Below are positions 17,283-61,100 of a stretch of 64,000 nt of DNA, in pieces. The stretch spans positions 1,216,001-1,280,000 of the forward strand of contig CAWFGO010000001.1 of NCBI GenBank assembly GCA_963815455.1. The letters are read 5' to 3'. Both the position numbers and the translations under genes were made by a program. The notes beneath the pieces were generated by a model. The model did not search any database. It saw nothing but the letters and a program-made list of their open reading frames with translations, and was not told where the DNA came from. The first letter of the stretch is position 1. Every line of letters begins with the position of its first letter. This stretch comes from an uncultured Verrucomicrobiae bacterium. Lineage in GTDB: Bacteria; Verrucomicrobiota; Verrucomicrobiia; Chthoniobacterales; UBA10450.

Positions 17283-17389
17283 CGTAAGCATCTCGCCTGG
17301 CCGGGAGGAGCTTCTGTCAGGCCCGAGGCAGGCCAAATGACGCGCACAACCGAACCTCCGCCCCCCGGTGTTGTGCAAATACACGTGCA

Positions 17390-17417
17390 TTTACACGTTT
17401 ATTCATCTAATTATAGT
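17390..17417 (+). promoter_or_regulatory. Candidate sigma70 promoter overlapping the attI-like site
   Basis: TTTACA (17390-17395), 16-nt spacer, TATAGT (17412-17417). Confidence 0.4.
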
Positions 17418-17422
17418 TAGGT
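17401..17422 (+). other. attI-like recombination site at the head of the cassette array
   Basis: ATTCATCTAATTATAG/TTAGGT; core GTTAGGTCT is the reverse complement of AGACCTAAC that ends cassette 1; no attC stem upstream. Confidence 0.65.
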
Positions 17423-17462
17423 CTTAGGAAACGCCGCGTGAAATCGTCGAGGGACAGTCACT

Positions 17463-17768: not shown

Positions 17769-17773
17769 CGCAG

Positions 17774-17902
17774 ACCTAACCAGACGATGAAGCTAACGGC
17801 CACTGTCCTGCGTTTTGGTGATGCCTTTCTGGCGGTTACTTTACTTTCACTGCGTTGTGGCCGCTACCCCAGTGGCCGTAGCTTATCTTATTCTCGTTAG
17901 AT
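17774..17902 (+). other. attC site 1
   Basis: R'' ACCTAAC, L'' GATGAAGC, L' GCTTATC, R' GTTAGAT. Confidence 0.92.
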
Positions 17903-17903
17903 C

Positions 17904-18290
17904 ATGAGCAAGCGCGCAACAGAAGATGCCATCCGGAAGGACATCGAAGCGCATCGCCAACGGAACGTTATGCTGGTCCAGCACATCACCAAAAGAGGTG
18001 CCGACACCGCGCGGGAGCGTGACATCGATTGTTTCTTTCACACACGCGGCGAGGATGCCGCCATCACACTGTCGGCATTTTTGCAGTCACGTGGGTTTCG
18101 GGACATTTCCATTGTGGACACCGAGGATGGGGGCGATCACCCGTGGACTGTTCAGGCCGTCCTTACCGGCACAGTAGTCGCCTTTACAGCGGCCGATCGC
18201 ACTGAGGAACTGGTTCGTATCGCAGCAGACCATGACGCACTGTTCGATGGTTGGGGAACACTGCTGGACGAAGTGCCACCGACGATCTAA
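17904..18290 (+). CDS. Cassette 2: RraB-like (ribonuclease E inhibitor domain) protein
   Basis: 128 aa; RDIDCFF...LVRIAADHDALFDGWG pattern; stop TAA lies within R'' of attC2. Confidence 0.65.
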   Translation: MSKRATEDAIRKDIEAHRQRNVMLVQHITKRGADTARERDIDCFFHTRGEDAAITLSAFLQSRGFRDISIVDTEDGGDHPWTVQAVLTGTVVAFTAADRTEELVRIAADHDALFDGWGTLLDEVPPTI

Positions 18291-18409
18291 CCAGACGATG
18301 CAGCGAACGGCTTTCCCGGCATGCGTTTACATTTTGCGATGACTAACATACGCTCACTTCAATTCAGCCTCGGTGTCGAAAGCCGTCGCTGATCTTATTC
18401 TCGTTAGGC
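18285..18409 (+). other. attC site 2
   Basis: ATCTAAC CAGAC GATGCAGC...GCTGATC TTATTCTC GTTAGGC. Confidence 0.92.
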
Positions 18410-18649
18410 GAAGAAGCGAATGACCGTATCGTGACTCACGAATGCACACCGCAATCCGCAGCTGCTGGCAAAAGCCAGTACCTGCTCTCTCCAGCTTCGC
18501 GGGTCCGCTGGATCACACCGAAACCACGTAAAGAAGCCGTCAGTCGTTACCGAGACGCTGCTATAGTCGCTCGCCAGAGATTCGCGTATGCGGTTTCTCA
18601 GCGTTGGGATGCAATCGCTCCACTCATATCCTGTTGTGCTTCTGTTCAT
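18404..18649 (-). CDS. Possible inverted small ORF in cassette 3 (81 aa)
   Basis: MNRSTTGY...VIRFFA; its stop coincides with the TTA of the GTTAGGC core. Confidence 0.4.
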   Translation of the reverse strand: MNRSTTGYEWSDCIPTLRNRIRESLASDYSSVSVTTDGFFTWFRCDPADPRSWREQVLAFASSCGLRCAFVSHDTVIRFFA

Positions 18650-18670
18650 ATCTTGTGTAAGCATCTCGGC

Positions 18671-19252
18671 TTGCTTGCGCGTTCGGCTCTCGATTGCAAG
18701 ATCCTTTTTGTTGTTTTTTTCGCGATTTCCGCCACTGCAGCAAACACATTGATAGCGGGCGAGCCTTACACTGTGCCGAGCAGCGCCCTTACGGACGCAG
18801 CTCGGCAAAATCTCGTCGGTGGCTTCACATACCACCTTCCGCCCGGTTGGTCGCAGAAGAATCTTCCCGGTGCACAGTTCAAGGCAGCATTCGGACGCGA
18901 GGAAGACGGCAATCCCGGAAACATTAGTTTTCAGGTTGCCGCTTTCAGCGGCAGCCTTGGCGAGTTTCAGGCCACGATGTTAAAAGAGATGCCGTCGGTT
19001 TTCTCCAAGATGGGCATTTCGGATTCCCGAGTCGTAAATCAATCGGCATTCGAAACATCCTCAAAGCTGGTTGGCTTGCAGGCAGTCGTCGAGGCTGAGC
19101 GCCTCGACGGGAAGACTGCGCGACAGCTCCTCTATTTCTTCGAGCGGAAGGACGGTCAAAAGATTCTCGTAACTTGCTCGGTCGTGGACGAGGGCACGCG
19201 ATACGATGCGATCTTTGATGCGATCATGAAGACATTCGAGGTCACAAAGTGA
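18671..19252 (+). CDS. Cassette 3: secreted PsbP/DcrB-like protein
   Basis: Hydrophobic signal (KILFVVFFAISATAA), FTYHLPPGW, and C-terminal FDAIMKTFEV; TTG start inferred. Confidence 0.6.
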   Translation: MLARSALDCKILFVVFFAISATAANTLIAGEPYTVPSSALTDAARQNLVGGFTYHLPPGWSQKNLPGAQFKAAFGREEDGNPGNISFQVAAFSGSLGEFQATMLKEMPSVFSKMGISDSRVVNQSAFETSSKLVGLQAVVEAERLDGKTARQLLYFFERKDGQKILVTCSVVDEGTRYDAIFDAIMKTFEVTK

Positions 19253-19265
19253 TTGCCACCCATTC

Positions 19266-19388
19266 GCCTAACCAGACGATGGAGCTAACGGCCACCCGGC
19301 GTATGTTTACCTTTCTCGTGACTTTAACACTATTGCTTCGATCATCGCTCGCTCTCGGTGGCCGTAGCTCATCTTGTTCTCGTTAGAT
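19266..19388 (+). other. attC site 3
   Basis: GCCTAAC CAGAC GATGGAGC...GCTCATC TTGTTCTC GTTAGAT. Confidence 0.92.
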
Positions 19389-19410
19389 GTAATGCAAACT
19401 GTTCGGCGGT

Positions 19411-19794
19411 ATGGAATCCTTCCTTCACTTCGTCATGACATTTGCCGGAGCACTCGCTGCCGCAATCGGGATTTTGCTCGGTGCGATTCTGATTTTTCTC
19501 CTCGTCGTTTGGATCAGCGATAAGATGCCGAGCGCGAACAAGCGTATCCGCAATCAAGCGCTCGGCGGCATTGGCTTGGTGCTATTCGGCTTTCTCATGC
19601 TTTGGAACGCGCGATGGGCACTGTTGCACCATACCATCTTGTTTCGACGCTACCCCTCGTGGGGAAGGTCTGCATGGATGAATCCGTGGCAGGCGATTGC
19701 CGTCGCTGCCATTTGCTTCATCCTCGGAGCGGTCCTCGTGATAGATGCCGTGCGCAAGAAAAGAGAACCAGATGCAAATTTCTCGGCAAATTGA
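19411..19794 (+). CDS. Cassette 4: small membrane protein (about 3 TM segments)
   Basis: 127 aa with three hydrophobic stretches, between attC3 and attC4. Confidence 0.7.
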   Translation: MESFLHFVMTFAGALAAAIGILLGAILIFLLVVWISDKMPSANKRIRNQALGGIGLVLFGFLMLWNARWALLHHTILFRRYPSWGRSAWMNPWQAIAVAAICFILGAVLVIDAVRKKREPDANFSAN

Positions 19795-19803
19795 ACGTCT
19801 CGC

Positions 19804-19927
19804 ATCTAACCAATCGCTCGAGCCAACCGCTGGCCGTCGCGATGTCCACATTTGATTTCATGAAACAGTTCTCGATGTTTGCCATGCTCGCTCTCGCCAG
19901 CGGTGCCTGAGCTCATTCTCGTTAGAC
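19804..19927 (+). other. attC site 4 (divergent variant)
   Basis: ATCTAAC CAATC GCTCGAGC CAACCGCTGGC...GCCAGCGGTG CCTGAGC TCATTCTC GTTAGAC. Confidence 0.88.
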
Positions 19928-19997
19928 CTGTTGGATTGCTCTGCGCGATGAGAAGGCGAAGTGAAAAAGCGCGAATCTTGCGCGAGCGAGCGAAGCC

Positions 19998-20741
19998 ATG
20001 AACGACGTTCCCGATGAAAAGCCGGTGGCAGCTACCTCAGGCGTGGCCCGCCAGCGGCGCGGTCTTGATTGGTCCCAGGCGCTAGTTGAGCTCGCTACGG
20101 TCGTCATCGGCATCTTAATCGCATTAGCGGCGAACAACTGGGCGGAGGGGCGACATAACGCTGCGCTGGAAGCTCGTTATCTGGAGCGACTCCTCGCGGA
20201 CAGCACGGAGAATCTTACCATGCTTCAGGAGAGGATTGATCTGCTGACGCGCCGGACCGACGAACTGACTCGCTTGAGCGGCTGGCTGACAGGCGGAACA
20301 GAGCGTCCCATAGATGCGGAAATTTCGGACGTTCTCTGCCGCTGGTTTATCCAACCAGCCTTACGCCTGCGCCGCGAGACCTACGCCGAACTGGTGAGCA
20401 CGGGTAACCTCTCTCTGCTGCGCGACGTGCCACTGCGCGCACTGCTTGAGCAAGCGGAAACCAGACACGAAGAATTGCTCAGGCTCGATCGCTTTACCGA
20501 TATTCTTCAGCGAGAGACGGAGCCATTGAATCGATATCGCCAGTGGAAAATCGATCCGGGTGCTGGCCCGAAGGTCGGCTGCCGTTTTGATCTCAATGCT
20601 ATGCGCTCTGACCCGGTCATCCCCTCGATCCTCGCCCAGATCTGTCGTGACGAGACTATAAACCGCTCGTTCTGTGAGCAGGAATTGGTCGCAGTCCGCG
20701 CCGTGCGCGACCGTATAACAAGAATGCAATCGCCGCGATGA
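19998..20741 (+). CDS. Cassette 5: single-TM helical protein (DUF6090-like)
   Basis: ELATVVIGILIALAANNW and TYAELVSTGNLSLL patterns. Confidence 0.7.
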   Translation: MNDVPDEKPVAATSGVARQRRGLDWSQALVELATVVIGILIALAANNWAEGRHNAALEARYLERLLADSTENLTMLQERIDLLTRRTDELTRLSGWLTGGTERPIDAEISDVLCRWFIQPALRLRRETYAELVSTGNLSLLRDVPLRALLEQAETRHEELLRLDRFTDILQRETEPLNRYRQWKIDPGAGPKVGCRFDLNAMRSDPVIPSILAQICRDETINRSFCEQELVAVRAVRDRITRMQSPR

Positions 20742-20803
20742 GACTGCTTGCCGAAGTGACAATGGCAGAGCGGGGCGGCCACATTCTGACCAAACACGAA
20801 AAG

Positions 20804-20926
20804 GCCTAACCAGACGGTGGAGCGAACAGCGACCGGCCTTTTCTCCACGCGCAGAGTAGATACAATGTCTTCCATGTTCTCCACCCTCGCTCTCGGTCGC
20901 CGCCGCTCACCTTGGTCTCGTTAGAT
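20804..20926 (+). other. attC site 5
   Basis: GCCTAAC CAGAC GGTGGAGC...GCTCACC TTGGTCTC GTTAGAT. Confidence 0.92.
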
Positions 20927-21383
20927 GAATCGGTTGCGTCTTGTCGCGTTGATAATTCTGTGCGTCACGGCCTCGTTCCGTGCGCAGGGCACTGGCTACT
21001 ACACTGCGGGGAGCCACATGACTAGCGCTGTCGACGCCAAGGGTGTCCGGCACGATGGGCACTCCTATAAAGGCGCTCCGCCTTGGCTCGCAGATCGCAC
21101 CTCAGGACCGTCACCAGATTACCCCATTCGCGAGCGCGCATTGCACCATCAAGGCCGAGTCATCGTTCGCCTCACCCTCGATCTTAAGACTGGCCGTGTT
21201 ATCAAGACCTCTTTGCTGAAGTCCTCGGGCTACCCCGAACTTGATCGCTGCGCGATTGCCGCTTTTAGCCGCTGGACGTGGCGTCCGGGCCGTTGGAAGG
21301 AGATAGACATGCCTACGAGATTTGAGATGGCCGATCCGTCTCAGCCGCCAGTCCCAGGGGCGACCCGGTTGCCGCACTCATGA
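20925..21383 (+). CDS. Cassette 6: secreted TonB C-terminal domain protein
   Basis: Signal peptide, PDYPIRERALHHQGRVIV, KSSGYPELDRCA and RWTWRPG; ATG overlaps R' of attC5. Confidence 0.8.
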   Translation: MNRLRLVALIILCVTASFRAQGTGYYTAGSHMTSAVDAKGVRHDGHSYKGAPPWLADRTSGPSPDYPIRERALHHQGRVIVRLTLDLKTGRVIKTSLLKSSGYPELDRCAIAAFSRWTWRPGRWKEIDMPTRFEMADPSQPPVPGATRLPHS

Positions 21384-21393
21384 TTCATCTAAC
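21382..21393 (+). other. Truncated terminal attC (R'' box only)
   Basis: GATTCATCTAAC is the exact reverse complement of GTTAGATGAATC that starts cassette 6; no L boxes or R' follow. Confidence 0.7.
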
Positions 21394-21565
21394 CATACAT
21401 CTGAGGTGGTCCGTCAAACATTTGGATTGAAGTTATTGGTAGGATTTTCAGGCGGCTTTAGGGAGTTGTTGATCGGCCATGAATAACTGCTGGATGACCA
21501 ATAATGCGATGCATTCGTTTTGATGAAGTGTTCCCCTAATTGTTCGCGAGCGAGAATCTCTTTTC

Positions 21566-21602
21566 GCGAGATCCTTCGCCGTCTACGCGGCTCAGGATGA
21601 CA
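21566..21602. repeat. Palindromic repeat family A, right arm
   Basis: CGCGAGATCCTTCGCCGTCTACGCGGCTCAGGATGACA. Confidence 0.7.
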
Positions 21603-21613
21603 AGGCCACGCTA

Positions 21614-37985: not shown

Positions 37986-38027
37986 CTAGAGATTTGAATG
38001 TACTTTTCACCTCGGCGCGAGCAATTC

Positions 38028-38158
38028 CGGGGAGCACAGGCTGCCAGCCTGTTGGTCTCGGCAGCTTGCCGAGACATCTCTGTCCGATCGAAAATTTGTT
38101 ACGCGAAATATCGCCGGCAAGCTGCCGGCGATTACAGGCTGGCAGCCTGTGCTCCCCG
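38028..38158. repeat. Palindromic repeat family B
   Basis: Perfect 25-bp terminal inverted repeat CGGGGAGCACAGGCTGCCAGCCTGT / ACAGGCTGGCAGCCTGTGCTCCCCG. Confidence 0.9.
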
Positions 38159-38210
38159 AAATCAAAAACCACGCTGTTTGTAATCCGCCCTTTGTGTTAA
38201 TCACAACACG

Positions 38211-39554
38211 ATGATTTCGATAACCGCCCGCCGCCCGTGGTACCGGCCGTCGCTCACGACCCAGATCATGATCGGCCTGGTCGTGGGCGGGCTGATCGGC
38301 TGGGTGCGACCCGACTGGGGTAACGCCGTCTTTTTTCTGCGCGATATTTTTCTCAACCTGATCAAGTCGATCATCGCTCCTCTGGTTTTCTCGACCATCG
38401 TGATCGGAATCGCCGGAGCCGGCGCGCTCAAGAAGGTGGGGCGCATGGGCGTGAAAGCGATTGTCTACTTCGAGACCGCTACGACCGCCGCGCTGGCCAT
38501 CGGGTTGGTCGTTGTCAATTTCATGAAGCCGGGCGTGGGCGTCACGCTCGTGGCCGGCAATACCGATATCGTTAAAGCAATCGGGCAAAGTCATCCCAAA
38601 ACGCTGATCGAAACGCTGGTGCACGCGTTTCCGTCCAGCGTGATTGAAGCGATGGTGCGCGGCGACGTGCTGCAAATCGTCGCGTTCAGTGTGCTCTTCG
38701 CCCTTGCGGTGTCAGCGATCGGCGAAAAAGGGAAACCGATCGTGCGCGCGATGGAGAGCCTGTCGCAGGTGATGTTCAAATTCACCAATTACGTCATGAT
38801 GTTCGCACCCATCGGAGTCGGCGCGGCCATGGCTCACACTGTCGGCACTCAGGGCTTGGGGGTTCTTTTCTATCTCGGCAAACTGATCCTTTCGCTTTAT
38901 CTCGCGTTGATCATCTTCATCGTCCTGGTCTTTGGGCTCGTCATTTTCATCGCCCGCGTCCCGTTGCGGCAATTTTTCCGCGCGGTGCGCGAGCCAGCCG
39001 CGCTCGCCTTCGCCACTACCAGCAGCGAATCGGCGCTCCCCAAGGCGATGGAACAAATGGAGCGGTTTGGCGTGCCGCGCCACATCGTCGGCTTCGTGAT
39101 GCCGACCGGTTATTCATTCAACCTCGACGGATCGACATTGTATCTGGCGATGGCCTCGGTGTTCGTCGCTCAAGCAGCCGAAACGACAATGGGCTGGCAC
39201 ATGGGGATCGGTCAGCAGATCACCATGATGCTGACGTTGATGCTCACTTCCAAAGGCGTGGCCGCGGTTCCGCGCGCGTCCCTGGTGATCTTGCTCGCAA
39301 CCTTGAACACGTTCCTTCCCGCCGGACTCGGCCCGATTGGCGTCGCGGTAATATTCGGCGTGGATGAACTAATGGACATGGGGCGCACGTGCGTGAACCT
39401 GGTTGGTAATTGTCTGGCCACCGTTGTCGTCGCCCGCTGGGAAGGCGAATTTGACGACGACCGTGCCCGTGTCTTCGGCACGCGCAAGGAAGTCGAACTC
39501 GATTTGAAATCCGGTGATGTCGCGTTCGCCGACGCGATGCGGCAGGGGGACTGA
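38211..39554 (+). CDS. Dicarboxylate/amino acid:cation symporter (GltP/DctA family)
   Basis: FATTSSESALP, GYSFNLDG, SKGVAAVP and DMGRTCVN motifs. Confidence 0.92.
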   Translation: MISITARRPWYRPSLTTQIMIGLVVGGLIGWVRPDWGNAVFFLRDIFLNLIKSIIAPLVFSTIVIGIAGAGALKKVGRMGVKAIVYFETATTAALAIGLVVVNFMKPGVGVTLVAGNTDIVKAIGQSHPKTLIETLVHAFPSSVIEAMVRGDVLQIVAFSVLFALAVSAIGEKGKPIVRAMESLSQVMFKFTNYVMMFAPIGVGAAMAHTVGTQGLGVLFYLGKLILSLYLALIIFIVLVFGLVIFIARVPLRQFFRAVREPAALAFATTSSESALPKAMEQMERFGVPRHIVGFVMPTGYSFNLDGSTLYLAMASVFVAQAAETTMGWHMGIGQQITMMLTLMLTSKGVAAVPRASLVILLATLNTFLPAGLGPIGVAVIFGVDELMDMGRTCVNLVGNCLATVVVARWEGEFDDDRARVFGTRKEVELDLKSGDVAFADAMRQGD

Positions 39555-39567
39555 TTAGTCGAATAAA

Positions 39568-39589
39568 TTTCGCCTACTTCTAGTTAGAC
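39568..39589 (+). other. Second attI-like site
   Basis: TTTCGCCTACTTCTAG/TTAGAC aligns without gaps to ATTCATCTAATTATAG/TTAGGT at 17401. Confidence 0.55.
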
Positions 39590-40369
39590 CTAAACGGGCG
39601 CGCCATCTATTTTCAAAATCTATCAAGCTGATCAAACAGATTTTTCAGCACATTCGACGTATTTCGAATGCGCGTCGCTTTGGGGTTCCTTTTGTCCGGC
39701 GCGCTTCATTCAGCCTTCCAACGGCGATCCGACTCCGAGGTCAGTCCGTGCTCCTTTCTTCCCCCGACGAGGGCGGCGCTGCGATTGACTTCTTAACATG
39801 CTTTATCGAGGACGAATACGGATTGAGCGCGGTCGATTTCCCCGTGCATACCGTTGCGGACATTGGGGCGAATATTGGCCTCTTCTCAATGGCGGCGCGA
39901 GGGTATTTCCCCACCGCAAGAATCCATTCCTACGAACCAAATCCCCGGGTGCTCGAGCATTCATCAAAGAATGCCGCCGCTGCTGAGTTCACCCTATTCG
40001 CCGAGGCTGTTGGCGCGAGGGCTGGGTATGTCTCGATCGACGAGTCGGGCGGCTCCAACCAAGCCAGGACAATCGCCGCTTCGAAGTCTGGCCATCGGAT
40101 TCCACAAGTCTCGCTCTCTACCGTCGTCGAACGGCTTGGCGGGCGAATTGATTTCGCCAAGATTGATTCCGAAGGAGCTGAGTGGGAGCTATTGGCCGAC
40201 CCTACTGCTTGGCCCGCTATTAAGAACATCCGCATGGAATATCATCTTTGGGGTCGGCGTGTCTTTACGGATGTCGAGCAATCTCTTGGCAGAATTGGGT
40301 TCCAGATTCATCACCATAGTTCAGCTGGCGAATGGGGCACCGTTTGGGCTCGCAACACAAAGGCCTAAC
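39584..40369 (+). mobile_element. Solitary gene cassette with R''-only attC
   Basis: Core GTTAGACCT (39583) and inverse core AGGCCTAAC (40361-40369), the latter holding the ORF stop; same end pair as cassette 5. Confidence 0.55.
39748..40368 (+). CDS. FkbM-family SAM methyltransferase (frame open upstream; may start at CTG 39628)
   Basis: DIGANIG, SYEPNP and KIDSEGAE motifs. Confidence 0.88.
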   Translation: MLLSSPDEGGAAIDFLTCFIEDEYGLSAVDFPVHTVADIGANIGLFSMAARGYFPTARIHSYEPNPRVLEHSSKNAAAAEFTLFAEAVGARAGYVSIDESGGSNQARTIAASKSGHRIPQVSLSTVVERLGGRIDFAKIDSEGAEWELLADPTAWPAIKNIRMEYHLWGRRVFTDVEQSLGRIGFQIHHHSSAGEWGTVWARNTKA

Positions 40370-40497
40370 CCCTATGAAGGGTGTCAACGGTGATTGTGAA
40401 GGGTAAGGTTTACACTGGGTGGATGGGTTGAAGGTGGAGTTGGTCTGGAACGCTTCCACTTCGGGTGCGCGCTTTTGTTTTTCAGCGGCTGATACTT

Positions 40498-40737
40498 CTA
40501 TCCGCGCATGTCGAACGTGAGCTTGTTCTCCCCCTCGATCCAGTTCCGCGTTGCCTTGGAATCGGCGTTCTCGAGCGGGCGATACGGATCGGCGACCTTC
40601 GTGCCGAAATAATCATCAACCTGATCGCTCTTCGGCGGGTGCGGATAAACGAGATGCTCCGTAGCCTCCGCGGCAAACGCGGAAGCAAAGGCAGCGAGCA
40701 GTGGCGGAATCGCGATGAGACGCAAGAGAAGTTTCAT
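40498..40737 (-). pseudogene. N-terminal fragment of a prolyl oligopeptidase (S9A)
   Basis: Signal peptide plus YP...VDDYFGTKVADPYRPLEN...WIEGENKLT, then a stop with no continuation. Confidence 0.75.
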
Positions 40738-40787
40738 AAAGTAAACAAGATCGACATCCTGTTAGCGGGCATAGGCAATCGCGCCAG

Positions 40788-41393
40788 TTAATTCTTCTGC
40801 GCCTTGAGCTCGGCAACCTTCTGTTCGGCGCGGTTGACGTCGGATTTTCGCGCTGTTCTCGTGGCGAGAAGCTTCTGTTGTCGATGCAAATTTGCCTCCG
40901 CGGCTTCGAGTTCTGCCCGCTGAAGATTGGCCGCGGCGATTTGAACGGATTCCCTGGCGTCGCCGGCGGCCTTCGTTGCCCGGGCCAATTCTGCTTCCGA
41001 TATTTCACCGGCAGTTAACCGGCCTTGCTGGGTGACAAGTTCTTCCTCAGCCAAGGCAAGCCGGGCATTAGCCAAGACCGATTCGAGCCGGACAACTTTC
41101 AACGCGCGCTGCTCGACTTCGACTTTCGAAAGCGCGCCAATTTTGCAGAGCCGGTCTGCCCGGGCCGCTCGCTCCTTGGCTCGCGCGAGTTCCTTTTCCA
41201 GGCGCGCGGGATCGCCCTCGGCGGTTCCGGGCGGCGCGACAGCCAGCGGCTCATCGGATCGGTTTGGGATGAGCAGCGGCGGCTCAATTTCAAATGAATC
41301 ATCGGACTCGTCTTCGGGCGATTGATCCGCGGCCAACGCTGCCATTCCTGCGATGACAATTGCGGCGGCCGCCAACGCAGACATCCGTGTCAT
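40788..41393 (-). CDS. Secreted coiled-coil hypothetical protein
   Basis: Signal peptide, acidic linker, then Ala/Glu/Leu-rich helical hairpins. Confidence 0.65.
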   Translation of the reverse strand: MTRMSALAAAAIVIAGMAALAADQSPEDESDDSFEIEPPLLIPNRSDEPLAVAPPGTAEGDPARLEKELARAKERAARADRLCKIGALSKVEVEQRALKVVRLESVLANARLALAEEELVTQQGRLTAGEISEAELARATKAAGDARESVQIAAANLQRAELEAAEANLHRQQKLLATRTARKSDVNRAEQKVAELKAQKN

Positions 41394-52133: not shown

Positions 52134-55100
52134 CTAGGGAATCTTGGATTTTACCAGCGTAACATCGGAGGCGTTAACGACCCCGTTAGCATTCACGTCG
52201 GTGCGGAAGTTGGATCCATCGATGGCCTCTCCCAGCTGAGATTTCACCATGGTCACGTCGGACGAATTGACCACGTCGTTGCCGGTCACATCGCCGATAC
52301 GGAGGTGCATTCGCACGCCTACGTCGCTGATGTTCGAGCCGTTATCGGTGTCGAACAACGCAACGGTGATCGTCTGCACGTCGGTTACGCCGCTAAGATT
52401 AATCGTTACGATGGTACTGGGCGATCCGTCGACGACGAGCGGGCTGCTAGTCACGCTGTCGACCATGCCGGTGCCCGAAGTCACCGCCGCGCCGCTAAAG
52501 GTGACCGTGTCTTCGAAAGTCAGCACGATCTTATAAAGATTAGTCGCTGCTCCGGTACCGCGGCTTTCAATGCCGACCGCGCCCATCAGTGGCAGAGAGA
52601 CATCGAAGTCACCTGCGCCCCCGTGAGTCTTGCGCGAAGCGGCCATGCTGGGATGAACGCCGGGCGCGAGCTCGATCGCGCCGATATCGCTCCCGTCACC
52701 GCCAGCGGCGTTCATGACGGCCGGATCATCAACCGGCCGAGCGAATCCGCGCTGGTCCTCGCCAGTGGCGGTGTAAGCCGGGCCGAACGGACCAATGTCC
52801 TTGCCCTGGTCAATCGCCGGGCTATTGACGAGCGGTGCGTGGGTGAATGTCGGGCCGCCATTGTACTTCAGCGGACCAAGCATCGGGTCGGTATTGATCT
52901 GATCACCGGTTCCAGTGAGGAATCCGCCAAAGTTGTCGCTGCTCAGGTTGAAGCCGAGCGAGCTGACCAGGCTGGTGCCGAGGGCGGAAATGTTCGTCCC
53001 CGAGGCACCGGTGTTGAAGATCGTGTTGCCGACGATCAACGACGCATCCTGGAGGAGGATTGCCGCGCCGCCAGGCGAGTTTTCGGTCAGGGTGCTGTTC
53101 GTGATCGTGACGTTGGCCGTACCGCTGGTGCCAATGGCATTCAGCGCACCACCGCTCGCAGCAGTGTTGCCGCTCAATGTGCTGTTGGTAATGGTCAGCG
53201 TCGCCGGATCCGCTACCGAACCCGGGGCGTCCACATTGGTGGCGTTGACCTGGGCCGCCCGGCTCATTCCGGCAATGGTGCATCCGGTCACGTGCGCGGT
53301 CGCCAACGGGCCGATGACTTCGACGCCATTAGCTCCTACGCCGCTGATCGCGCTACCTGTGACTTCAGCCGTGCTCGAGACATCGGCCGCGGCTGTGCGC
53401 GAATTTTGAACCTTCACTCCGGTCCCGGATTCGACGTTAATCGGCATTCCGTTAACTCTAACCGCGATGGCGTTGGCAGCGCCGGTATACGCGTTGCTGG
53501 TCAGATCAGTCGTACCCACCGGGTTGACCGTCAGGTTGTCGGTAAGATAAACGCCGGCAATCTTGGTCCCGCTCATCGCATTCGTATCATCCAAGGTGAT
53601 TACGTTGCTGGTCGACGTATTGGTCAATTCGATGCCATAGTCGGTGTCGTCGACCGAGTTGTTAGTCAGAGTCGGGCTCACGCCGTTCTGGACGGTCACG
53701 AACGACATGCCGAAGTTGTTTGGCACGGCGCCGGTCTCAGCGGTGACCGAGTTGTTATCGATCAATGCACTGGTGGCGCTATTGAAGTGCAGCCAGTAGA
53801 GAATGCCTCCGGCATAACTGTGGATCTCGTTCCCCGAGATCACCCAGCTGGCCGAACCTTCGCCCGCCGCCGGGGGAATCGCCGCCGAGAAGTTATTCGT
53901 GTGCACGCCAGTCCAGACGCGAGTCATCAGGTTATCAACGACATCCGCGTAGTAACCCGTGCGCAGCGAGACGGCATACCCGAAGTCATAGAAGCCGACA
54001 CTGTCGAACCAGTTCTCGGCTACCAGGTTGGCAAATGACAACCCATCGCCGCGGAAGCCAATGGCCACCCGGGTGATAATGTTGTCGCGGACAACGACGT
54101 GGTGGAAGGCGCCAACTGGCCGCACGCCGTAGCTGGCGTTGGTATCTTCGCCACTTTCCAGAGTTGTTCCGACAAAGCCCGGATCGTCGCCATCGATTTC
54201 GAACCCGTTAATCGTGACATTCGGCATCGAAACCGTGAACACCGCGGTCTGCGCCGCGCCAACTGTGCGCACATATGCCTCGGCCACTCGCGAACCGCTG
54301 CTGCCGGGGATTCCGGCGTTCGGTCCCATAATATTCAACTCCTTGTTCACGTTCGGATTTTCGAAGTAATTACCCGCGTAAACAATCACTGTGCCCGGAT
54401 TAGCGACGCCATTGATACCATCCTGGATCGTGGCAAAAGCGTCGTAACCGATTTCCGTCGCGGGCCCACCAGCATCGGGGTCGACTCCGTTAGGCAAGCC
54501 GGTCCAATCGTCGTCTACGTAGACAATCGCAGCCGGCGGCCGTGCTTCACGCGTTACTACAACCGTGTAGGTCTTGGTGGTCATCGGCGCATGGATGCCC
54601 ATCTCGTCCTGAGCGGATACAACCACCGTGATCGTGTTCATGCCCACGCTGAGATTGATCGGATCACTCGGGGTGCCCGATGCGACCGGCGTTCCGTTAA
54701 CCGTCACCGTTGCCGTCGGGTCCTGGACTGTCGGCGTGACGGTGGTGTTCATGGTCGAGAACGGCACTGTCAGCGTGTAATCGGTCGTGTCTGGATCGAA
54801 CGCGGGCATGATCGCGCCGGCGCTCAGGACCAGGTTCGACAAGTTTGCATTCGAGCTTGGGGCGCGGGTAACGACGACCGTGTAGGTCTTCATGTTGCCG
54901 GCCGGCGCGGTGACAACCGTCGTGATGGTGTTCATCCCAACGTTCAGCGGGATTGGGGCGCTTGCCATACCCGAGGCGACTGGATCGCCGTTGACCGTGA
55001 TCGTAGCATTCGCGTCCGCCGCAGTCGGCGTTTCTGTAATGCTCGTAGTCGAATTCGGGACGCTTGCTGTGTAGCTCGTTATTGCCGGATCGAAGTCCGG

Positions 55101-58100
55101 CGATAACATGCCGTCGCTCAATGTCAGGTTCGACAAATCCGCATTGGTGCTGGCCGCACGGGTGACCGTGACCGTGTAGGTCTTCATCGTAGTACCATCC
55201 TGGGCGGTGACGACCGTGGTAATGGCATTCGGACCCACCGCCAGCGGGATCGAGCCGCTTGGGGTGCCGGATACGACCGGGTTCCCGTTGACGGTTATGG
55301 TCGAGGTGGAGTCGGCCGAGGTTGGAGTTTCAGTAATGCTGGTCGTCGAATTCGGGACCATTGCCGTGTAGCTCGTTATTGCCGGATCGAAGTCCGGTGA
55401 CAACATGCCGTCGCTCAATGTCAGGTTCGAGAGATCGGCGTTGAAGGCCAGCGCCATACCTCCGAATTCATCCGCACCGACGTCAGGCGCAGTGCCTGTT
55501 CCGGCATAGCCCGGGTTGCCCTGACGGATGTCATTATCGTAGTCGTCTGTAATGCCCGCCACGTTAGCCGCCATGCTTTCCAAATGGGTCGCCGTCGCCG
55601 AATTGATGTGCAGGAAGGTTGGGTCCGAACCAGTTGTGCTAAGGAACGGCGGATTCTCCGTGAACGAGGCCGAATCGCGAGAAGCGACCCGAGCCCGGTA
55701 AGCCTGGATGGTCTGATCGGAATTGGTTCCGTCAAAGAAGACGAGGTGCGAAGCACTCGGCGTCCCGGCGTAGAAGTCGTTGTTATTGGAGGTCGGCCCG
55801 TAGTTGGTCAGAGTCGCATTGCTTCTGCGATAGGCTGCTGCTACGCCCGTGCCATTAGCAATGGAGTTGTTCACAACGACGTTGTTGCGCAGATTCAACG
55901 CCGCCGTTGTCGCCGTGCCGCTGGTGGTATGGAAGATCCCCGACGTCGAGAAGTTCGCTCCTCCCATCGCCGCGCTCAGATAAATCGTGTTATAAGACAC
56001 GTTGAGGGTCGACGTCGATGTTGTTGAGGTCAGGTTGATTCCTCTGATCGCATCCGTCGCACTGCTGGTAGACGGAGCCCTCAAATCTCCGATCAGATTG
56101 TCGTAGATATTGAACGTCGTCCCCGAGGAAACGAGAATTCCGTTCACCGTTGCGGTGGCGCCATTCGACTGTAGATCGTAGATCTTGTTCTTGAAGATAT
56201 TCTGGGTCGTCGCCCCGGTCATCTGAATGCCAGTCACCACCGCGGCAGCTCCCGTAGAGGAGAGCCCGCTCACGCTGTTGTTGAAGAAGTTCTGGTTCTG
56301 GCCATCGGAGAAGATGGCCGAGATGCTTCCGGCGCCGCTGATGTTGCTGATGGCATTCCCGCTCACGTTGTTAGCAGCGAACGTGTTGTCGCTAAATCCA
56401 ACGTATAGGATCGATGAAATCGCGCTCGTCCCGCCAGTAATATTGCTGAAGGTGTTGTTGGTAATCGTCTTTCTCGATCCCGGCGTGGTTCCATCGGCGC
56501 TTCTCCATCCGGCGATGCTGGTCGCCCCCGTGAAGGTCATGTTGGAGAAATTGTTCCCGGTGTTTGTCTCTGTGACTGTCGAACCCGACGATCCAAACGC
56601 GTTATAAAACAGCACGGTCCCGCCAACTCCAGTTTTGCTGTAGCCGGTCACAATCGAGTTGTTATTGACGTTGTGAGTCGAATTCGCCGCGTGAGTAACG
56701 CTGTTACCGATCATCGTCACGCTGCCGGTCGTATTCGCGGTAATGTTGGTGATGGTGTTGTTGTTAATGTTCGTCGAACCGGTGAACACCTGGTTGTTCA
56801 GGTAATTATGCGATCCCGACCCAGTGACGTTTTGCACAAAGCCCCTCACATCATTACCCGACATCGTTAGCGTCGCGGTTGCAGCTCCGGCGGCGTTAAC
56901 CAAACCGAAGAAGGCGCCGCTCGACGCCGCACTGTAGGTAAAGGAGTTCGACGTTGCGGTGCCGATGTGGTTGTTGTTCATGTTGATCGCAACACCCACT
57001 GTGGCGGCCTGCTGAACCAGACCCGCCGCCTGGCCTGACGATACGAGCGAGAACCGGCGGATATTATTTCCGTTCATGTTCACCGTCGCGGTCGCTGCAC
57101 CGGCCGTGTTGGTGATAGCGGAAATGCCGCCCGTCGTGGCCGCGGAGAACGTTGCAGCGTTGACCGTCTCAGTCCCGACATCGTTGTTGAGGATATTCAC
57201 CGTATTGACCACAGCGCCCTGATTGGTCACACCGACAAATCCACCAGTAGTGGCAGCGGAGGTATTGCCGCTGACCTCGTTGTTGTTCATGTTCAGGGTT
57301 CCGTAAGGACCGAGGTTGGCCACGCCGAAAATCGTGACCGCGCCCGCGGTCGTAACGGCATTGTTGACAGCCTTATTGCTGTTCAGATTCATCGTCACGT
57401 TGCTCATCGCCCCCGCAGTCGCCGCGGTAGTGATACACTGCATGCCTCCCGCGCCCGCCTGAGTGAACGTAACGGTATTATTGATGACGTTGTTGGTGAT
57501 CGCCCCGACTGGAACCGCGCCGTAGTCGGTCAGAATACCTCGCAATGCCGTAGCCGTATTGAGGCTCGCGCTGATGAACGAGTTATTCGACACGTTGTAG
57601 TTGTTCTCATTCAGAACATACGCGCCGCCGACGATCGTAGTCGGATAGCCCACGTATGCTGTCGCCGCCGGGAGCCCACCGTAATTACTAACGGCGTTGC
57701 CGGTTGCCACCGAGGGACTGTCGATGACGACTGGCCCACCGATATCGTTGCCGACGTCCATGTTGGCCGCTGTCGCCGAGCCGATAAAGATGATGCCGTG
57801 GGCAACATTACTGATCCCGTTGGTATAAACTTTGTTACCGCTAGCCGGACCAGTCGTGTTGTTCGTTACTTCTTCCGCTACCGTAATGTTGGTCGCGCTG
57901 TGACGATTGTTGCTGTAAACGCCGAAGGTGTTCCCGTAGATCTTGTTCAGCGAGATCGTGTTGTTCTGGATCGTGTTGTTCTGCGAACCTTGTGTCAAAG
58001 ACGCGTGAAGCAACGCAACGCCCCATTCGGTCATGTTGTTTGACGCCGGCGTTGTCACGGTGTTGGCCGGGTTTTCCTGCATCGTGAAGTTCTGCAGAGT

Positions 58101-61100
58101 GATCCAGTTGCCGCCGATCAGCTTGAAGATGGCGTCATTCAATGCGCCCGCTACAAGAACGGGCGAGGCAGTAATCGTGCTCGCGTTGCCCTGAATTGTG
58201 ATCGTGTTGGCCGCCGTCCCGCCCTGTTGGGTGATGGCGTAACCGCCGGCGGGAGCTGTTTCGTTTCCGTTCAGCGTAATCACCACTGGATCGGTAATTG
58301 TCGCGGCGTTCAATGCGGTGATCGCGTCGGCTAAACTCGCGTAATCCGGCGCCAGGCCCGAGGCGCCATTGGTTGTTACCGGTCCCGCACGGTGGACCGT
58401 GACCGTATAGGTCTTCATGGTCGTGGTGTCCGCAGCGGTAACAACGGTCGTAATTACGTTATCGCCCACGGCCAGAGCGATCGGATCGCTGGCGTTGCCG
58501 GACACAATCGGGCTGCCGTTAACAGTGATCGTCGCGCCTGCATCTTGCGCGGTCGGCGTAACCGTCGTGCTGGTCGTCGCGTTCGGTACGGTCAGCGTGT
58601 AGCTGATCGTGTCGGGGTCGAACACGGGCATGATCGCACCGGCGCTCAAGACCAAGTCCGATAGATTGGCGTTCGAACTAACCGCGGTCGCACGAGTGAC
58701 GTCAACCGTATAGGTCTTTGTCGTTTGCGGCGTGCGAATGCCCATCTCATCCTGGGCTGACACTACGATGCTGATCATGTTGCTGCCCACGGCGAGATTG
58801 ATCGGGTCGCTCGCCATGCCGGAAACGACCGGCATTCCATTAATCGTCACGGTGGCCGTCGGATCCTGCACGGTTGGAGTCACGGTAATGCTCGAGGTCG
58901 AGTTTGGTACGCTCGCCGCATAACTTGTGGTGTTTGGATCAAACGCCGGCACCAGGGTCCCATCACTCAGAACCAAACTCGAAAGGTTTGCATTCGAACT
59001 CGGCGCGCGCGTGACGGTGACCGTGTAAACTTTCATCGTCGTCGTGTCCTGCGCCGTCACTTTTACGTCCACGGTGTTCATCCCGACGTTCAAAGCGAGT
59101 GCGCCGCTGGTTCCACCGGAGGGGACCGGACTGTACATCCCGCCGTTCACCCGAACCTGAATCGTGGCGTTTGGATCAGCCGCAGTGGGCGTAACCGTCG
59201 TACTCGTCGTGGCATTAGGCACGCTTAGTGTGTAGCTGGTCGTGGCCGGATCGAACGGGGGCGAGAAGGCGCCTGCGCTCAACATCAGGTCGGAGAGGTC
59301 GGCGTTCGCGCTCGCGAGCCGGGTGACGACCACTGTGTAGGTATTCGGTGTCCCCGCATTGGGCTGATCGGCCGAGAACGGTCCGAACTCAGGCGTCACC
59401 ACCACGGTGACGGTATTCATGCCCACATTGAGCGGAATAGGATCGCTGGCCATCCCCGAGGGCACGGGATTGCCGTTGACTGTGACTGAAGCGTTCGAAT
59501 CCTGGACTGTCGGGGTGAATGTGATGCTGTTGGTCGCATTCGATACTGTCTCCGTGTAGCTGGTTATGTCAGGATCGAATGTCTCGTTAAGCGAGCCCAT
59601 TCCGGGCACCAGGTTGGAAAGCTTGTTCGACGCAATTTCGTCCGCGCCTATATCCGGCTTCATTGCGCTGCGGCTATTGCCATCGATGTCAGTCGTGACA
59701 GAGCCGATTGGCGTGCCCGCGTTGGCGGCAGCTACACTATGTGAACTCAAGTGTAGGTCTGTATTGCTTACAAATGGCGCCGCTGTCGTAGTTGCAAGTG
59801 AAGCGTTATCGTTGGTGCCTGCGGCGGAAAGAGTGCTGGAATAGCTGCGGAAGTTGGTCGGGGGCACTACGGCGCCAGGGTTGAAGTTAACCGCGGCGAA
59901 ATCTCCCGACCCGCTCGTGGTGCCTACAACAGCCATTCTGCAGTTCGCGTCGGTCCCTTCGTAATACGCATTATTATTGAGGGTAAGGTTCATTGCGCTC
60001 GTTCCACTCGACGGCAGATTAATTGCAACAAACCTGGTATTACCGCCGCTGGCTCCACCGGTCATTTGGTTCGACAGAACGTTGTCCCGAACATCGCAGC
60101 CGGTCACGGACGTGGCGCTAACCGCCAGGGCTATTGTCATGTTGGTGCTGACCGTACCACCCATGGCTCCGTAAAGATGGACAGAATTACTGTGGACCTG
60201 GTGCCCGGTCCCAGCGTTTAGCCGGATCCCTGATGCACCAAAGCTTGGCCCGAATGCACCTGTTCCTGCGGTTTGATCGTTCTTAACGTTCGCTACGAAA
60301 TTATTGCGAACGATATTGTTGTTGCCGCCGTTGAGGTTGATGCCGACCGCGGGCCAGCTGGCCGTGTTCGTATTGAGGATATTTTGAACATTGTTCTTTT
60401 CAATGGTGATGCCGCCGGTCGTGCCGCTTACCGAAATTCCGCACACCAAAGAGGTCGAACTACTGCCGCCGGACGACATGTTCATCACGGAATTTCCGCT
60501 GATAATGTCGGCGGAATTTGCAATCGTTGACGTGACGTTGATGCCGACGGGCGAAACTGTGCTGGTGCCCGTGTAATTCAACGCCGAGAGGGTGTTCCCC
60601 GATACCGTCGCGTTAATTGTCCCCGTTGCCAGCCAGATCCCAACATCGTTTTCGGCGGTCGCCGCCTCGAAATTGCCGACAGTGTTGTTGCTGACGGTAG
60701 CTCCATTCACGCCCTGCATGTACAGACCGACGTTCCGAATGGCATTCGCGCCGCTCGTATTAAGCGTATTCTGCGTGTAGACAAGATTCGATCCGCCTTG
60801 CGGGGTCGTGCCGCCGGTGGCAAAGACGCCAACGAACGCTTTTTGAACGTCGTTGTTCTGAATCGTGATGTTGGAGAAGAACCCGGCATTTCCCAGGGTC
60901 GTGCCATCCGAAATGACGACGGCGGAGCTCGTCTGCGCCCCGTTGACGATGATGCAATTCTTAAGGGTATCGTCCGTGACTGGCGTTGTCCCGGTTGACC
61001 CGAACAACACAACGCTCGGAGAAGTTGTATTGGTGTTCGTAATCGTGAGGCTGCGGTCTGATCCGCCAACCATGTTAGATCCGTCTATGGTGCAATAACT

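What the first reader, a model, noticed from the sequence alone, without database searches (positions are those of the whole stretch)
39568..40369. Second attI-like site 22 kb away holding one FkbM cassette: a possible distributed integron
Seen: TTTCGCCTACTTCTAGTTAG (39568) matches ATTCATCTAATTATAGTTAG (17401) at 15 of 20 positions without gaps (WTTCRYCTAMTTMTAG/TTAG). It lies 13 nt after the symporter stop. The following methyltransferase gene stops inside AGGCCTAAC, which pairs with the GTTAGACCT core exactly as in cassette 5. Inference: the chromosome may carry several stand-alone attI-like sites downstream of ordinary genes that capture cassettes with one shared integrase. This would differ from the classical single intI-attI-Pc locus.
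Basis: partly seen in the sequence, partly recalled or inferred. Interest (0 to 1): 0.8.

Follow-up and report, generated by a model that had tools for sequence, protein, structure and literature searches.

The report
Orphan attI site holding one cassette
A stray integron docking site just after a transporter gene holds one captured methyltransferase gene whose far end was cut by a jumping gene; it is one of several integrase-less integron fragments scattered around this chromosome.

Summary
The 15-of-20 match is real but weak alone: 31 of 200 shuffled windows give one. Independent evidence makes the site convincing. A weight matrix built from nine other array-heading sites scores it 28.3 bits, the best non-training position in 7.2 M. 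It scores 2.1 bits as an attC 3' arm.

The genome has two intact intI genes, at least 76 attC sites and 11 attI-type sites. Seven of the 11 have no integrase nearby.

The FkbM gene has no complete attC. Its stop lies in an R'' box (GCCTAAC). That box abuts about 145 nt of the end of an IS110/IS1111-family element that inserts at exactly this position in attC sites in five other genomes. The element stub is fused to codon 75 of a truncated prolyl oligopeptidase gene.

The same-genus relative has symporter, then intact peptidase, with no attI and no FkbM.

Verdict: a genuine orphan attI with one cassette, now a decayed fragment. The "distributed integron" pattern is real as anatomy. Its activity, and how such modules reach new loci, are unshown.

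The parts
38211..39554 (+). Sodium:dicarboxylate symporter gene, the conserved left neighbour
   Evidence: Pfam SDF, E 2e-111. It is 89% identical to the same-genus G001 protein over its full length. DNA homology to G001 stops at the stop codon.
39554..39563 (+). Accessory box ATTAGTCGAA, an inverted copy of the L-box motif. It resembles the GTTAGACGAA box upstream of the intI-linked attI sites.
   Evidence: Read from the upstream flanks printed and from L020/L026. The similarity was judged by eye, without statistics.
39569..39589 (+). attI-type simple site TTCGCCTACTTCTAG|TTAGAC (L box, spacer, R box). The inferred crossover lies between G39583 and T39584.
   Evidence: PWM 28.3 bits, the best non-training site in the genome. 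The left 15 nt score 19.3 bits, unique apart from the training sites. It scores only 2.1 bits on the attC-arm PWM.
39584..40369 (+). Single gene cassette, from TTAGAC to R'' GCCTAAC
   Evidence: Bounded by the attI-type crossover and R''. The first 9 nt (with the G before them) and the last 9 nt are complementary at 8 of 9 positions, as in cassettes 1-6 of the first array. It is not found in same-genus G001 or in 6 other relatives at this locus.
39748..40368 (+). FkbM-family methyltransferase ORF as called mechanically (GTG start, 206 aa). Homology-supported coding sequence reaches back to about 39589. The Met of homologues aligns with CTG at 39628.
   Evidence: Pfam PF05050, E 1e-11. The frame is open from 39559. 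Aligned with 5 homologues. It is 63% identical to a Sinobacteraceae MAG protein and 60% to a G003 protein (G003 is an unpublished genome).
40363..40369 (+). R'' box (GCCTAAC), the only surviving part of the cassette's attC
   Evidence: Sequence. No attC match by the covariance model with filters off anywhere in 40363-40520 at E up to 10.
40370..40514 (-). Truncated transposase-distal end (non-coding region) of an IS110/IS1111-family element of the attC-targeting kind
   Evidence: nhmmer E 1.1e-40 with a profile of 7 copies. It is 81% identical to C1:1480328-1480491 at the distal end of the main intI-linked array. In G002 the same element continues into a PF01548+PF02371 transposase gene and sits in an attC. 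Conservation starts right after YCTAAC in 7 of 7 copies.
40498..40737 (-). Remnant of a prolyl oligopeptidase gene. Codons 1-75 are retained and homology ends at about 40513.
   Evidence: Pfam Peptidase_S9_N, N-terminal part only. Residues 1-75 align with residues 1-75 of the intact 709-aa G001 protein at 57% identity.
17402..17422 (+). First orphan attI-type site of the window, heading a 6-cassette array
   Evidence: PWM 32.1 bits. No intI lies within 3 kb upstream. It shares 25 nt of upstream sequence with the orphan at C1:294194.
17770..20929 (+). Five canonical attC sites of the first array (17770-17905, 18281-18412, 19262-19391, 19800-19930, 20800-20929)
   Evidence: Covariance model R1 was built from these five sites, 107-133 bits. 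The model finds 71 further sites in the genome.
21386..21438 (-). Remnant of the end of a second IS110-family element type, abutting R'' (ATCTAAC) of the last cassette of the first array
   Evidence: 85% identical to C1:1710561-1710613. That stretch lies next to a 458-aa PF01548+PF02371 transposase gene inside an array.

Best explanation
The locus is a decayed, integrase-less integron fragment with three parts. First, a genuine attI-type recombination site (accessory box plus simple site, 39554-39589). Second, one gene cassette encoding an FkbM-family methyltransferase, integrated at the attI crossover G|TTAGAC. Third, the stump of the cassette's attC. That attC was hit, right after its R'' box, by an IS110/IS1111-family insertion sequence of the kind that specifically targets attC sites. 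A later deletion removed most of the IS, the rest of the attC, anything that lay beyond it, and all but 75 codons of the neighbouring prolyl oligopeptidase gene.

The block is specific to this genome. The same-genus relative has symporter, about 340 nt, then an intact oligopeptidase gene. It is one of seven attI-type sites in the genome that lack an adjacent integrase, while two intact intI genes sit elsewhere.

Shown: site type and significance, cassette ends, IS identity and junction, the deletion junction, and the empty allele. Inferred: that IntI put the cassette there, the order of events, and how the attI-bearing block reached this locus (unknown).
For: (1) Site type. The PWM from 9 other array-heading sites gives 28.3 bits, rank 1 among non-training positions. 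The left half alone gives 19.3 bits, unique in 7.24 M positions. The attC-arm PWM gives 2.1 bits, whereas true arms score 26.8 or more.
(2) The motif marks cassette arrays. Nine of 11 sites are followed by covariance-model attCs, and a tenth (C3:193942) by a short attC-like site seen by eye. Four of the 11 sit beside intI genes or fragments.
(3) IS evidence. A 145-nt element begins right after GCCTAAC. It is homologous to 6 other copies in 5 genomes, and all 7 start after YCTAAC. nhmmer gives E 1e-40. The G002 copy carries a PF01548+PF02371 transposase gene antisense to the cassettes, with the remaining attC on its far side. All 7 other IS110-family transposase loci found in G000 lie in or at the end of arrays. 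Passages read in PMC11187229 state that the IS1111 members ISKpn4 and ISPst6 target one end of attC sites, and that the guide-RNA region lies downstream of tnp.
(4) G004:C3 shows the same layout still attached to a degraded intI: intI, attI (30.9 bits), one short cassette, R'', the same IS end.
(5) The oligopeptidase remnant aligns to residues 1-75 of the intact G001 protein and ends where the IS stub ends.
(6) Empty allele. G001 has no FkbM, no attI PWM hit and an intact 709-aa peptidase.
(7) Contigs of a soil run carry the IS continuing beyond 40514, a peptidase continuing before 40511, and other sequences in front of 40364/40365 (contigs only, small share of the stretch).
Against: No complete attC is present, so cassette status rests on R'', end complementarity and the IS junction. 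None of 9 loci holding FkbM homologues has an attC by model R1. R1 is lineage-specific, so this is weak for the 8 loci from distant genomes. The ninth, in family relative G003, sits in an ordinary operon-like context (unpublished genome).

Only about 34 nt of attI-like sequence is present, against about 70 nt conserved at the intI-linked sites, so the site may be incomplete. No IntI remnant lies within 3 kb upstream. The left flank is a conserved housekeeping neighbour, so simple in-place loss of intI does not explain the position. The mechanism that brought the block here is unexplained.

The FkbM frame lacks a canonical start where homologues have Met.
Confidence: 0.7

Rival explanations
1. 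Active distributed integron. The orphan attI-type sites, this one included, are working docking sites served in trans by the two intact IntI proteins, and FkbM was captured in place at 39584.
For: Two full-length intI genes score above the TIGR02249 cut-off with no stops. Seven orphan attI-type sites exist, five of them followed by high-scoring attCs. Whole attI-plus-array blocks are absent from otherwise syntenic loci in relatives: LolA|tpiA in 5 of 5 genomes examined, the C3:85939 locus in 3 of 5, and the C2:421855 locus in 3 of 5. Passages read in PMC4889954 consider CALIN cassettes mobilisable by integrases elsewhere.
Against: There is no evidence of cassette turnover at any orphan site. 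G001 has no attI or attC at the two loci checked. This site keeps only a short attI. Its cassette has lost its attC, so it can no longer be excised, and the locus carries deletion scars. Orphan C2:421855 retains the 3' end of an intI gene, which points to decay.
Confidence: 0.2
2. The 21-mer is the 3' arm of an attC from a lost upstream cassette. The block would then be an internal piece of an array, not an attI-headed one.
For: attI-type sites and attC 3' arms of this genome share TTCTCGTTAG, and array fragments are common here.
Against: The attC-arm PWM gives 2.1 bits, against 26.8 or more for 30 true arms. The attI PWM gives 28.3 bits, against 18.0 or less for those arms. The upstream 15 nt resemble the attI accessory box rather than the L' stem.
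Confidence: 0.05
3. The FkbM cassette went into a non-classical secondary (attG-type) site, and the resemblance of the left flank to attI is fortuitous.
For: IntI can insert cassettes outside att sites (abstract of bioRxiv 10.1101/2022.09.11.507474 seen in the listing; passage in PMC12444791).
Against: The 15 nt left of the crossover score 19.3 bits, reached nowhere else in 7.24 M positions except at the training sites. The same-genus genome has no such sequence after the symporter stop.
Confidence: 0.03
4. Chance motif next to a vertically inherited FkbM gene.
For: The 15/20 match alone occurs in 15.5% of shuffled windows. A 60%-identical FkbM homologue exists in a family relative in a non-cassette context (unpublished G003).
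Against: PWM significance. FkbM was not found at this locus in 7 of 7 relatives examined. The IS stub and the truncated neighbour gene also argue against it.
Confidence: 0.02

Closest known systems
CALIN (cluster of attC sites lacking an integron integrase; Cury et al. 2016, PMC4889954, passages read)
   Same: Cassette DNA sits away from any intI, in a genome that also encodes IntI. The origins proposed there (rearrangement, loss of intI, secondary-site insertion) are the same candidates here.
   Different: A CALIN is defined by at least two attC sites. This locus has only an R'' stump, so it would not be called one. It keeps an attI-type site at its head. IntegronFinder looks for attI only by exact match to classes 1-3. 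The attI-headed blocks here lie at loci that are empty in relatives and have no intI remnant.
attI sites of complete integrons (the attI1 simple site with L and R boxes and upstream direct repeats is recalled, not checked by a call)
   Same: YCTAA, a spacer of about 6 nt, then GTTAGRY, with the crossover at G|TT and an extra box upstream. Four copies of the motif sit beside intI genes in this genome.
   Different: There is no adjacent intI. Only about 34 nt of the roughly 70-nt conserved attI region is present. Recombination activity is untested.
IS1111-attC group of insertion sequences (ISPst6, ISKpn4; PMC11187229 passages read; Tetu & Holmes 2008 and Post & Hall 2009 seen only as references)
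   Same: A DEDD (IS110-family) transposase. Insertion at one fixed point and in one orientation at one end of attC sites. A long non-coding region downstream of tnp. Subterminal inverted repeats are visible in the resident copies.
   Different: Only a 145-nt stub survives in the window. Sequence relatedness to the named IS was not tested. The host is not a proteobacterium; the nearest phosphoglycerate kinase cluster in the protein atlas is mostly Verrucomicrobiota, a weak lead. At least three IS types with two different insertion points occur: after CTAAC, and about 13 nt further in.
Integrons with intI co-oriented with the cassettes ('inverted-integrase' type, e.g. Treponema; recalled, not checked by a call)
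   Same: Three of the four intI-linked attI sites of this genome lie 54-65 nt downstream of the intI 3' end on the same strand.
   Different: This applies to the parent integrons, not to the orphan site itself. The fourth intI is divergent.

Membership tests
Integron attI site | Sequence matches the attI sites that adjoin intI genes of the same genome | tested here: met
   PWM 28.3 bits, built from 9 sites of which 4 adjoin intI. Two mismatches to the 15-nt left-half consensus.
Integron attI site | Lies next to an integron integrase gene | tested here: not met
   No IntI similarity within 3 kb upstream. The nearest intI is about 240 kb away on the same contig.
Integron attI site | Recombines with attC under IntI | not testable with these tools
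   Needs an in vivo or in vitro recombination assay.
Integron gene cassette | Begins at a G|TTRRRY crossover | tested here: met
   G|TTAGAC at 39583/39584.
Integron gene cassette | Ends in a complete, foldable attC (R''-L''-L'-R') | tested here: not met
   The covariance model with filters off finds nothing in 40363-40520 at E up to 10. Only R'' GCCTAAC remains, and the rest is replaced by the IS stub.
Integron gene cassette | R'' is complementary to the cassette's own start | tested here: met
   8 of 9 positions (AGGCCTAAC versus the reverse complement of GTTAGACCT), within the 8/9 to 11/11 range read for cassettes 1-6. This is weak statistically.
Integron gene cassette | Variable presence: absent from the same locus in relatives | tested here: met
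   Not found at this locus in 7 of 7 relatives. The same-genus G001 has an intact peptidase gene instead.
CALIN | At least two attC sites with no intI nearby | tested here: not met
   No complete attC at this locus. The first array of the window (5 attCs, no intI) does qualify.
IS1111-attC-like IS (IS110/IS1111 family) | DEDD transposase (PF01548 + PF02371) | tested here: inconclusive
   Met for the homologous G002 copy, which is frameshifted, and as a 77-aa C-terminal remnant at C1:1479894-1480124. No transposase-coding part survives in the window.
IS1111-attC-like IS (IS110/IS1111 family) | Fixed insertion point and orientation in attC sites | tested here: met
   7 of 7 aligned copies start right after YCTAAC, plus a 40-nt copy at C1:196818. 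The copies in G002 (L018), G004:C1 (L019) and G013 (L021) lie in or at the end of attC arrays. The G004:C3 (L020) and G025 (L022) copies lie beside intI genes.
FkbM methyltransferase family (PF05050) | Profile match above the curated cut-off | tested here: met
   45.7 bits against a cut-off of 22.7.
FkbM methyltransferase family (PF05050) | Intact full-length gene | tested here: inconclusive
   The frame is open and conserved over the N-terminal region, but CTG stands where homologues have Met. The first canonical start removes about 40 conserved residues.

The most novel reading that the evidence does not exclude
attI-headed cassette modules may themselves be relocatable units. In this lineage, blocks made of an attI-type site plus cassettes have been placed at several ordinary intergenic spots that are tight and empty in relatives. 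They carry no integrase remnant. Two intact IntI proteins encoded elsewhere could keep using these sites in trans. The chromosome would then run a multi-site integron rather than one intI-attI-Pc locus with passive debris. The accessory box at the exact left junction (TGA|TTAGTCGAA, resembling G|TTAGACGAA) leaves open that IntI itself cut and pasted attI-bearing circles.
Probability: 0.15. Interest if true: 0.75.

Novelty: new variant of a known kind. Interest (0 to 1): 0.42.

Why it matters
The origin of integrase-less cassette clusters is an open question, and standard tools cannot see attI sites outside classes 1-3. This genome offers a compact natural test case. It has a lineage-specific attI motif that separates cleanly from attC arms. 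It has seven orphan attI-type sites, two intact integrases, at least three attC-targeting IS types, and empty alleles in relatives.

If the orphan sites recombine, integron capture capacity in environmental bacteria is spread over many loci and is under-counted. If they do not, the genome documents how attC-targeting insertion sequences and deletions break up and fossilise arrays. For the finding itself the practical message is modest: it is a decayed one-cassette remnant.

Tried and rejected
(1) Complete attC after FkbM. Model R1, filters off, gave nothing in 40363-40520. The only nearby weak hit is the attI-type site itself (39545-39592, 8.3 bits, E 3.7).
(2) Rfam. No family matched in the window at gathering score, nor in 39500-40800 at E up to 1, so the 145-nt element is not a described RNA family.
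(3) FkbM as a widely circulating cassette. Eight homologue loci from public genomes and one in G003 (unpublished) show no attC with R1. R1 is lineage-specific, so this is weak.
(4) IntI remnants upstream of the orphan sites. None at E below 0.1 within 3 kb.
(5) Promoter and terminator scan of 39300-40800: none found.
(6) Sequencing runs. Only one soil run held a small share (0.06) of the stretch. Laid as contigs, it gave loose ends consistent with the junctions, but no read-level test of excision and no habitat claim.
(7) The 10-nt repeat ATTCATCTAA at both ends of the first array looked like a target duplication. It is explained instead by 11/11 complementarity between cassette 6's start and its own R''.
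(8) Tetu & Holmes 2008 (PMC2447020) is not held. The exact published insertion point of IS1111-attC elements could not be compared. The resident copies of this genome served as the internal standard.
(9) No attI-type site or attC was found in G001 at the loci matching C3:579894 and C3:85939, so no evidence of cassette turnover at a shared orphan site.

Full report
**1. Observation**

The sequences and coordinates are as stated.
- The 20-mers at 39568 and 17401 agree at 15 of 20 positions.
- The symporter gene (38211-39554; Pfam SDF, E 2e-111) ends 13 nt before the site.
- The ORF 39748-40368 is an FkbM-family methyltransferase (PF05050, 45.7 bits, cut-off 22.7).
- Its TAA stop lies inside GCCTAAC (40363-40369).
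- Cassette 5 of the first array and this unit both start GTTAGACCT and end AAAGGCCTAAC.

Taken alone the 15/20 match is weak. In 200 block-shuffled windows, 31 contained at least one such match.

**2. The genome is rich in integrons**

The window is G000:C1:1216001-1280000. It holds no integrase. Upstream of 17401 lies a LolA-like gene and downstream of the array lies tpiA.

The genome holds:
- two full-length integron integrase genes above the TIGR02249 cut-off with no stops: C1:1718441-1719418 (+) and C1:1495265-1496200 (-);
- one frameshifted copy on C3;
- fragments on C2 and C1.

A covariance model built from the five clear attC sites of the first array finds 76 matches at E up to 1 in the genome. 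Only 150 of 783 candidates were scored, so this is a lower bound. The matches are grouped in about a dozen arrays.

IntI occurs in 23 of 40 other genomes of the family that were searched. None was found in the same-genus G001, which is 95% complete in 200 contigs. The phylum is probably Verrucomicrobiota; this is a weak lead from the nearest phosphoglycerate kinase cluster in the protein atlas.

**3. The motif is a real attI-type site**

- Four lie beside intI genes or fragments. Three of these are 54-65 nt downstream of the intI 3' end on the same strand. One is divergent, 155 nt away.
- Nine of the 11 are followed by model-detected attC arrays.
- A tenth (C3:193942) is followed by a short attC-like site of about 52 nt that the model misses; this was seen by eye.
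- The consensus is TTCGTCTAMTTCTCG|TTAGRY: YCTAA, a spacer, then GTTAGRY. This is the layout I recall for the attI1 simple site (recalled, not checked by a call).
- The intI-linked sites also carry an upstream box, GTTAGACGAA, which is the inverse of the L box.

A PWM from the nine array-heading sites, leaving out the finding, scores the finding 28.3 bits. That is the best non-training position on both strands. The next scores 20.3, and attC 3' arms score 18.0 or less.

The 15 nt left of the crossover alone score 19.3 bits. Only the nine training sites reach that among 7,237,876 positions.

Under a PWM of 30 attC 3' arms the site scores 2.1 bits, whereas true arms score 26.8 or more.

The 15 nt between the symporter stop and the simple site (ATTAGTCGAATAAAT) resemble the accessory box; this similarity is by eye.

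**4. The FkbM unit has no complete attC, but has an R'' cut by an attC-targeting IS**

With filters off, the attC model finds nothing after the gene, and Rfam finds nothing.

However, window 40352-40514 is 81% identical to C1:1480328-1480491. That stretch is the distal end of the main intI-linked array, which has 25 model hits. Copies also occur in G002, G004 (two), G013 and G025.

In all 7 aligned copies, conservation begins right after YCTAAC, and the upstream sequences are unrelated. A profile of the 7 copies finds in G000:
- two long copies (E 7e-42 and 1e-40);
- one 40-nt copy at C1:196818;
- one doubtful match.

In G002 the element runs on for about 540 nt into a gene antisense to the cassettes. 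That gene matches DEDD_Tnp_IS110 and Transposase_20 and is frameshifted. The rest of the attC lies on the far side (58.8 bits).

G000 holds six further IS110-family transposase loci of a second type (38% identical). All lie inside arrays and all are antisense to the cassettes. They are inserted about 13 nt after R'' and have visible subterminal inverted repeats. A third type (458 aa) lies at C1:1709177-1710553.

Passages read in PMC11187229 state that the IS1111 members ISKpn4 and ISPst6 target one end of attC sites. They also state that the guide-RNA-coding non-coding region lies downstream of tnp in IS1111 elements. The stub next to R'' here is that transposase-distal end.

The original description of the IS1111-attC group is not held. 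The published insertion point was therefore not compared.

**5. Deletion scar**

The minus-strand ORF 40498-40737 matches only the N-terminus of Peptidase_S9_N. Its residues 1-75 align with residues 1-75 of the intact 709-aa prolyl oligopeptidase of G001 at 57% identity. Homology therefore ends at about 40513, which is where the IS stub ends.

Contigs of one soil run show three kinds of loose end: the IS continuing beyond 40514, a peptidase continuing before 40511, and other sequences in front of 40364/40365. These are contigs covering a small share of the stretch, so they are supportive only.

**6. Empty alleles**

In G001 the order is PALP gene, symporter, about 340 nt with a small ORF, then the intact convergent peptidase gene. 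There is no FkbM and no attI-type site. DNA homology between G000 and G001 stops at the symporter stop codon.

Six other family genomes have other neighbours after the symporter and no attI PWM hit there. So 39555-40514 (about 960 nt) replaces about 2.2 kb of ancestral DNA.

The first array of the window is likewise an insertion. LolA-like and tpiA are 21-49 nt apart in 5 of 5 relatives read, against 4,331 nt in G000. That array also ends in a stub of an IS110-family end after R''.

Two more orphan loci behave the same way:
- The C3:85939 locus is 22-32 nt in G001, G009 and G007. G000 has a flank duplication of about 60 nt there.
- The C2:421855 locus is 103-535 nt in G002, G011 and G001. G009 has 6.2 kb with one attC at that place.

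**7. The gene**

FkbM's closest relatives are 63% identical (a Sinobacteraceae MAG) and 60% identical (G003, an unpublished genome; this claim rests on it).

Homologues occur patchily across phyla. None of the 9 homologue loci shows an attC with model R1, but the model is lineage-specific.

The reading frame is open from 39559 and is conserved with the N-termini of homologues. CTG (39628) stands where they have Met. The first canonical start (GTG 39748) would drop about 40 conserved residues. The gene may be decaying or may use a non-canonical start.

No promoter-like or terminator-like site was found in 39300-40800. Any expression would probably be by read-through from the symporter gene; this is inference.

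**8. Interpretation**

Best reading (0.7): an orphan attI-type site carrying one cassette. The cassette's attC was invaded by an attC-targeting IS. Most of the IS, the remaining attC and the neighbouring peptidase gene were then lost in a deletion. G004:C3 shows the same layout still attached to a degraded intI: intI, attI (30.9 bits), one short cassette, R'', the same IS end.

How an attI-bearing block came to lie right after the symporter stop is not explained. No IntI remnant lies within 3 kb of any of the seven orphan sites. One orphan (C2:421855) keeps 59 nt identical to the intI-proximal flank, including the end of intI. Others keep 25-34 nt.

The active "distributed integron" reading (0.2) is not excluded, but no evidence of turnover was found. 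The remaining rivals are disfavoured:
- attC-arm origin;
- secondary-site insertion with a chance resemblance to attI;
- chance motif.

**9. Comparison and novelty**

Integrase-less cassette clusters, their possible origins and their possible mobilisation in trans are established ideas (PMC4889954, passages read; PMC12444791, passages read). attC-targeting IS1111 elements are also known.

What is less usual:
- a lineage-specific attI motif recurs at seven integrase-less places;
- whole attI-plus-array blocks sit at spots that are empty in relatives;
- array ends are repeatedly sealed by truncated attC-targeting IS.

My two literature searches did not show a description of attI-headed CALINs as such. 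This is not proof of absence, and supplements were not consulted. I rate it a new variant of a known kind, of moderate interest.

Noticed in passing
window 38025-38164: A palindromic repeat of about 135 nt lies between the PALP gene and the symporter gene. It matches on both strands and has many copies in G000 and in family relatives. It is probably a REP/MITE-like element.
   Followed up: no
window 17283-21613: The whole first array (attI-type site, 6 cassettes, IS-end stub) is a 4.3-kb insertion between the LolA-like gene and tpiA. These two genes are 21-49 nt apart in 5 of 5 relatives read.
   Followed up: yes
window 21562-21604: A repeat of about 40 nt just before tpiA has roughly 28 copies across contigs C1, C2, C3 and C5.
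   Followed up: no
G000 C1:1495200 and C1:1718286 (loci L002, L001): One genome carries both integron layouts. In one, intI is co-oriented with the cassettes and attI lies about 64 nt after its stop. In the other, intI is divergent, 155 nt from attI.
   Followed up: partly
G000 C2:708045-712663, C3:784758-792293, C6:21015-22691: These arrays share 98% identical flanks and near-identical IS copies, and they lie near contig ends. They may be one locus assembled more than once, or strain variants. Counts of intI genes and arrays may therefore be inflated.
   Followed up: no
G000 C1:196600-196860 (locus L030): A miniature of the finding. Right after a gene stop comes a degenerate AATTCTCGTTAGGC, then about 110 nt, then R'' GCCTAAC and a 40-nt stub of the same IS end.
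   Followed up: partly
G000 C3:193942-194720 (locus L034): An attI-type site (20.3 bits) is followed by an ORF and a short attC-like site of about 52 nt (GGCTAAC...CGTTAGGC) that model R1 misses. This suggests a second attC class in the genome.
   Followed up: partly
G000 C3:84900-86150 (locus L033) versus G001 (locus L051): The orphan block at C3:85939 is flanked by a duplication of about 60 nt covering the overlapping 3' ends of two convergent genes. The left copy is much more diverged than the right one. This may hint at import by homologous recombination from a relative.
   Followed up: partly
locus L052 (G009:C1:1679000-1686200): A different genus has 6.2 kb with one attC (42.9 bits) at the locus where G000 has the orphan array C2:421855. 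No attI PWM hit was found there. It may be a recurrent insertion hotspot.
   Followed up: partly
locus L026 position 6075 (G017:C24): An orphan attI-type site (29.9 bits) with an adjacent GTTAGACGAA box lies 2.6 kb downstream of the orthologous symporter gene. No intI lies in the 8-kb locus and no R1 attC was found.
   Followed up: partly
window 40788-41393 (-): A 201-aa ORF without a Pfam match lies between the peptidase remnant and the next conserved gene. It has no counterpart at this place in G001.
   Followed up: no
window 52134-62531 (-): A very long ORF of 3,465 aa. Not examined.
   Followed up: no
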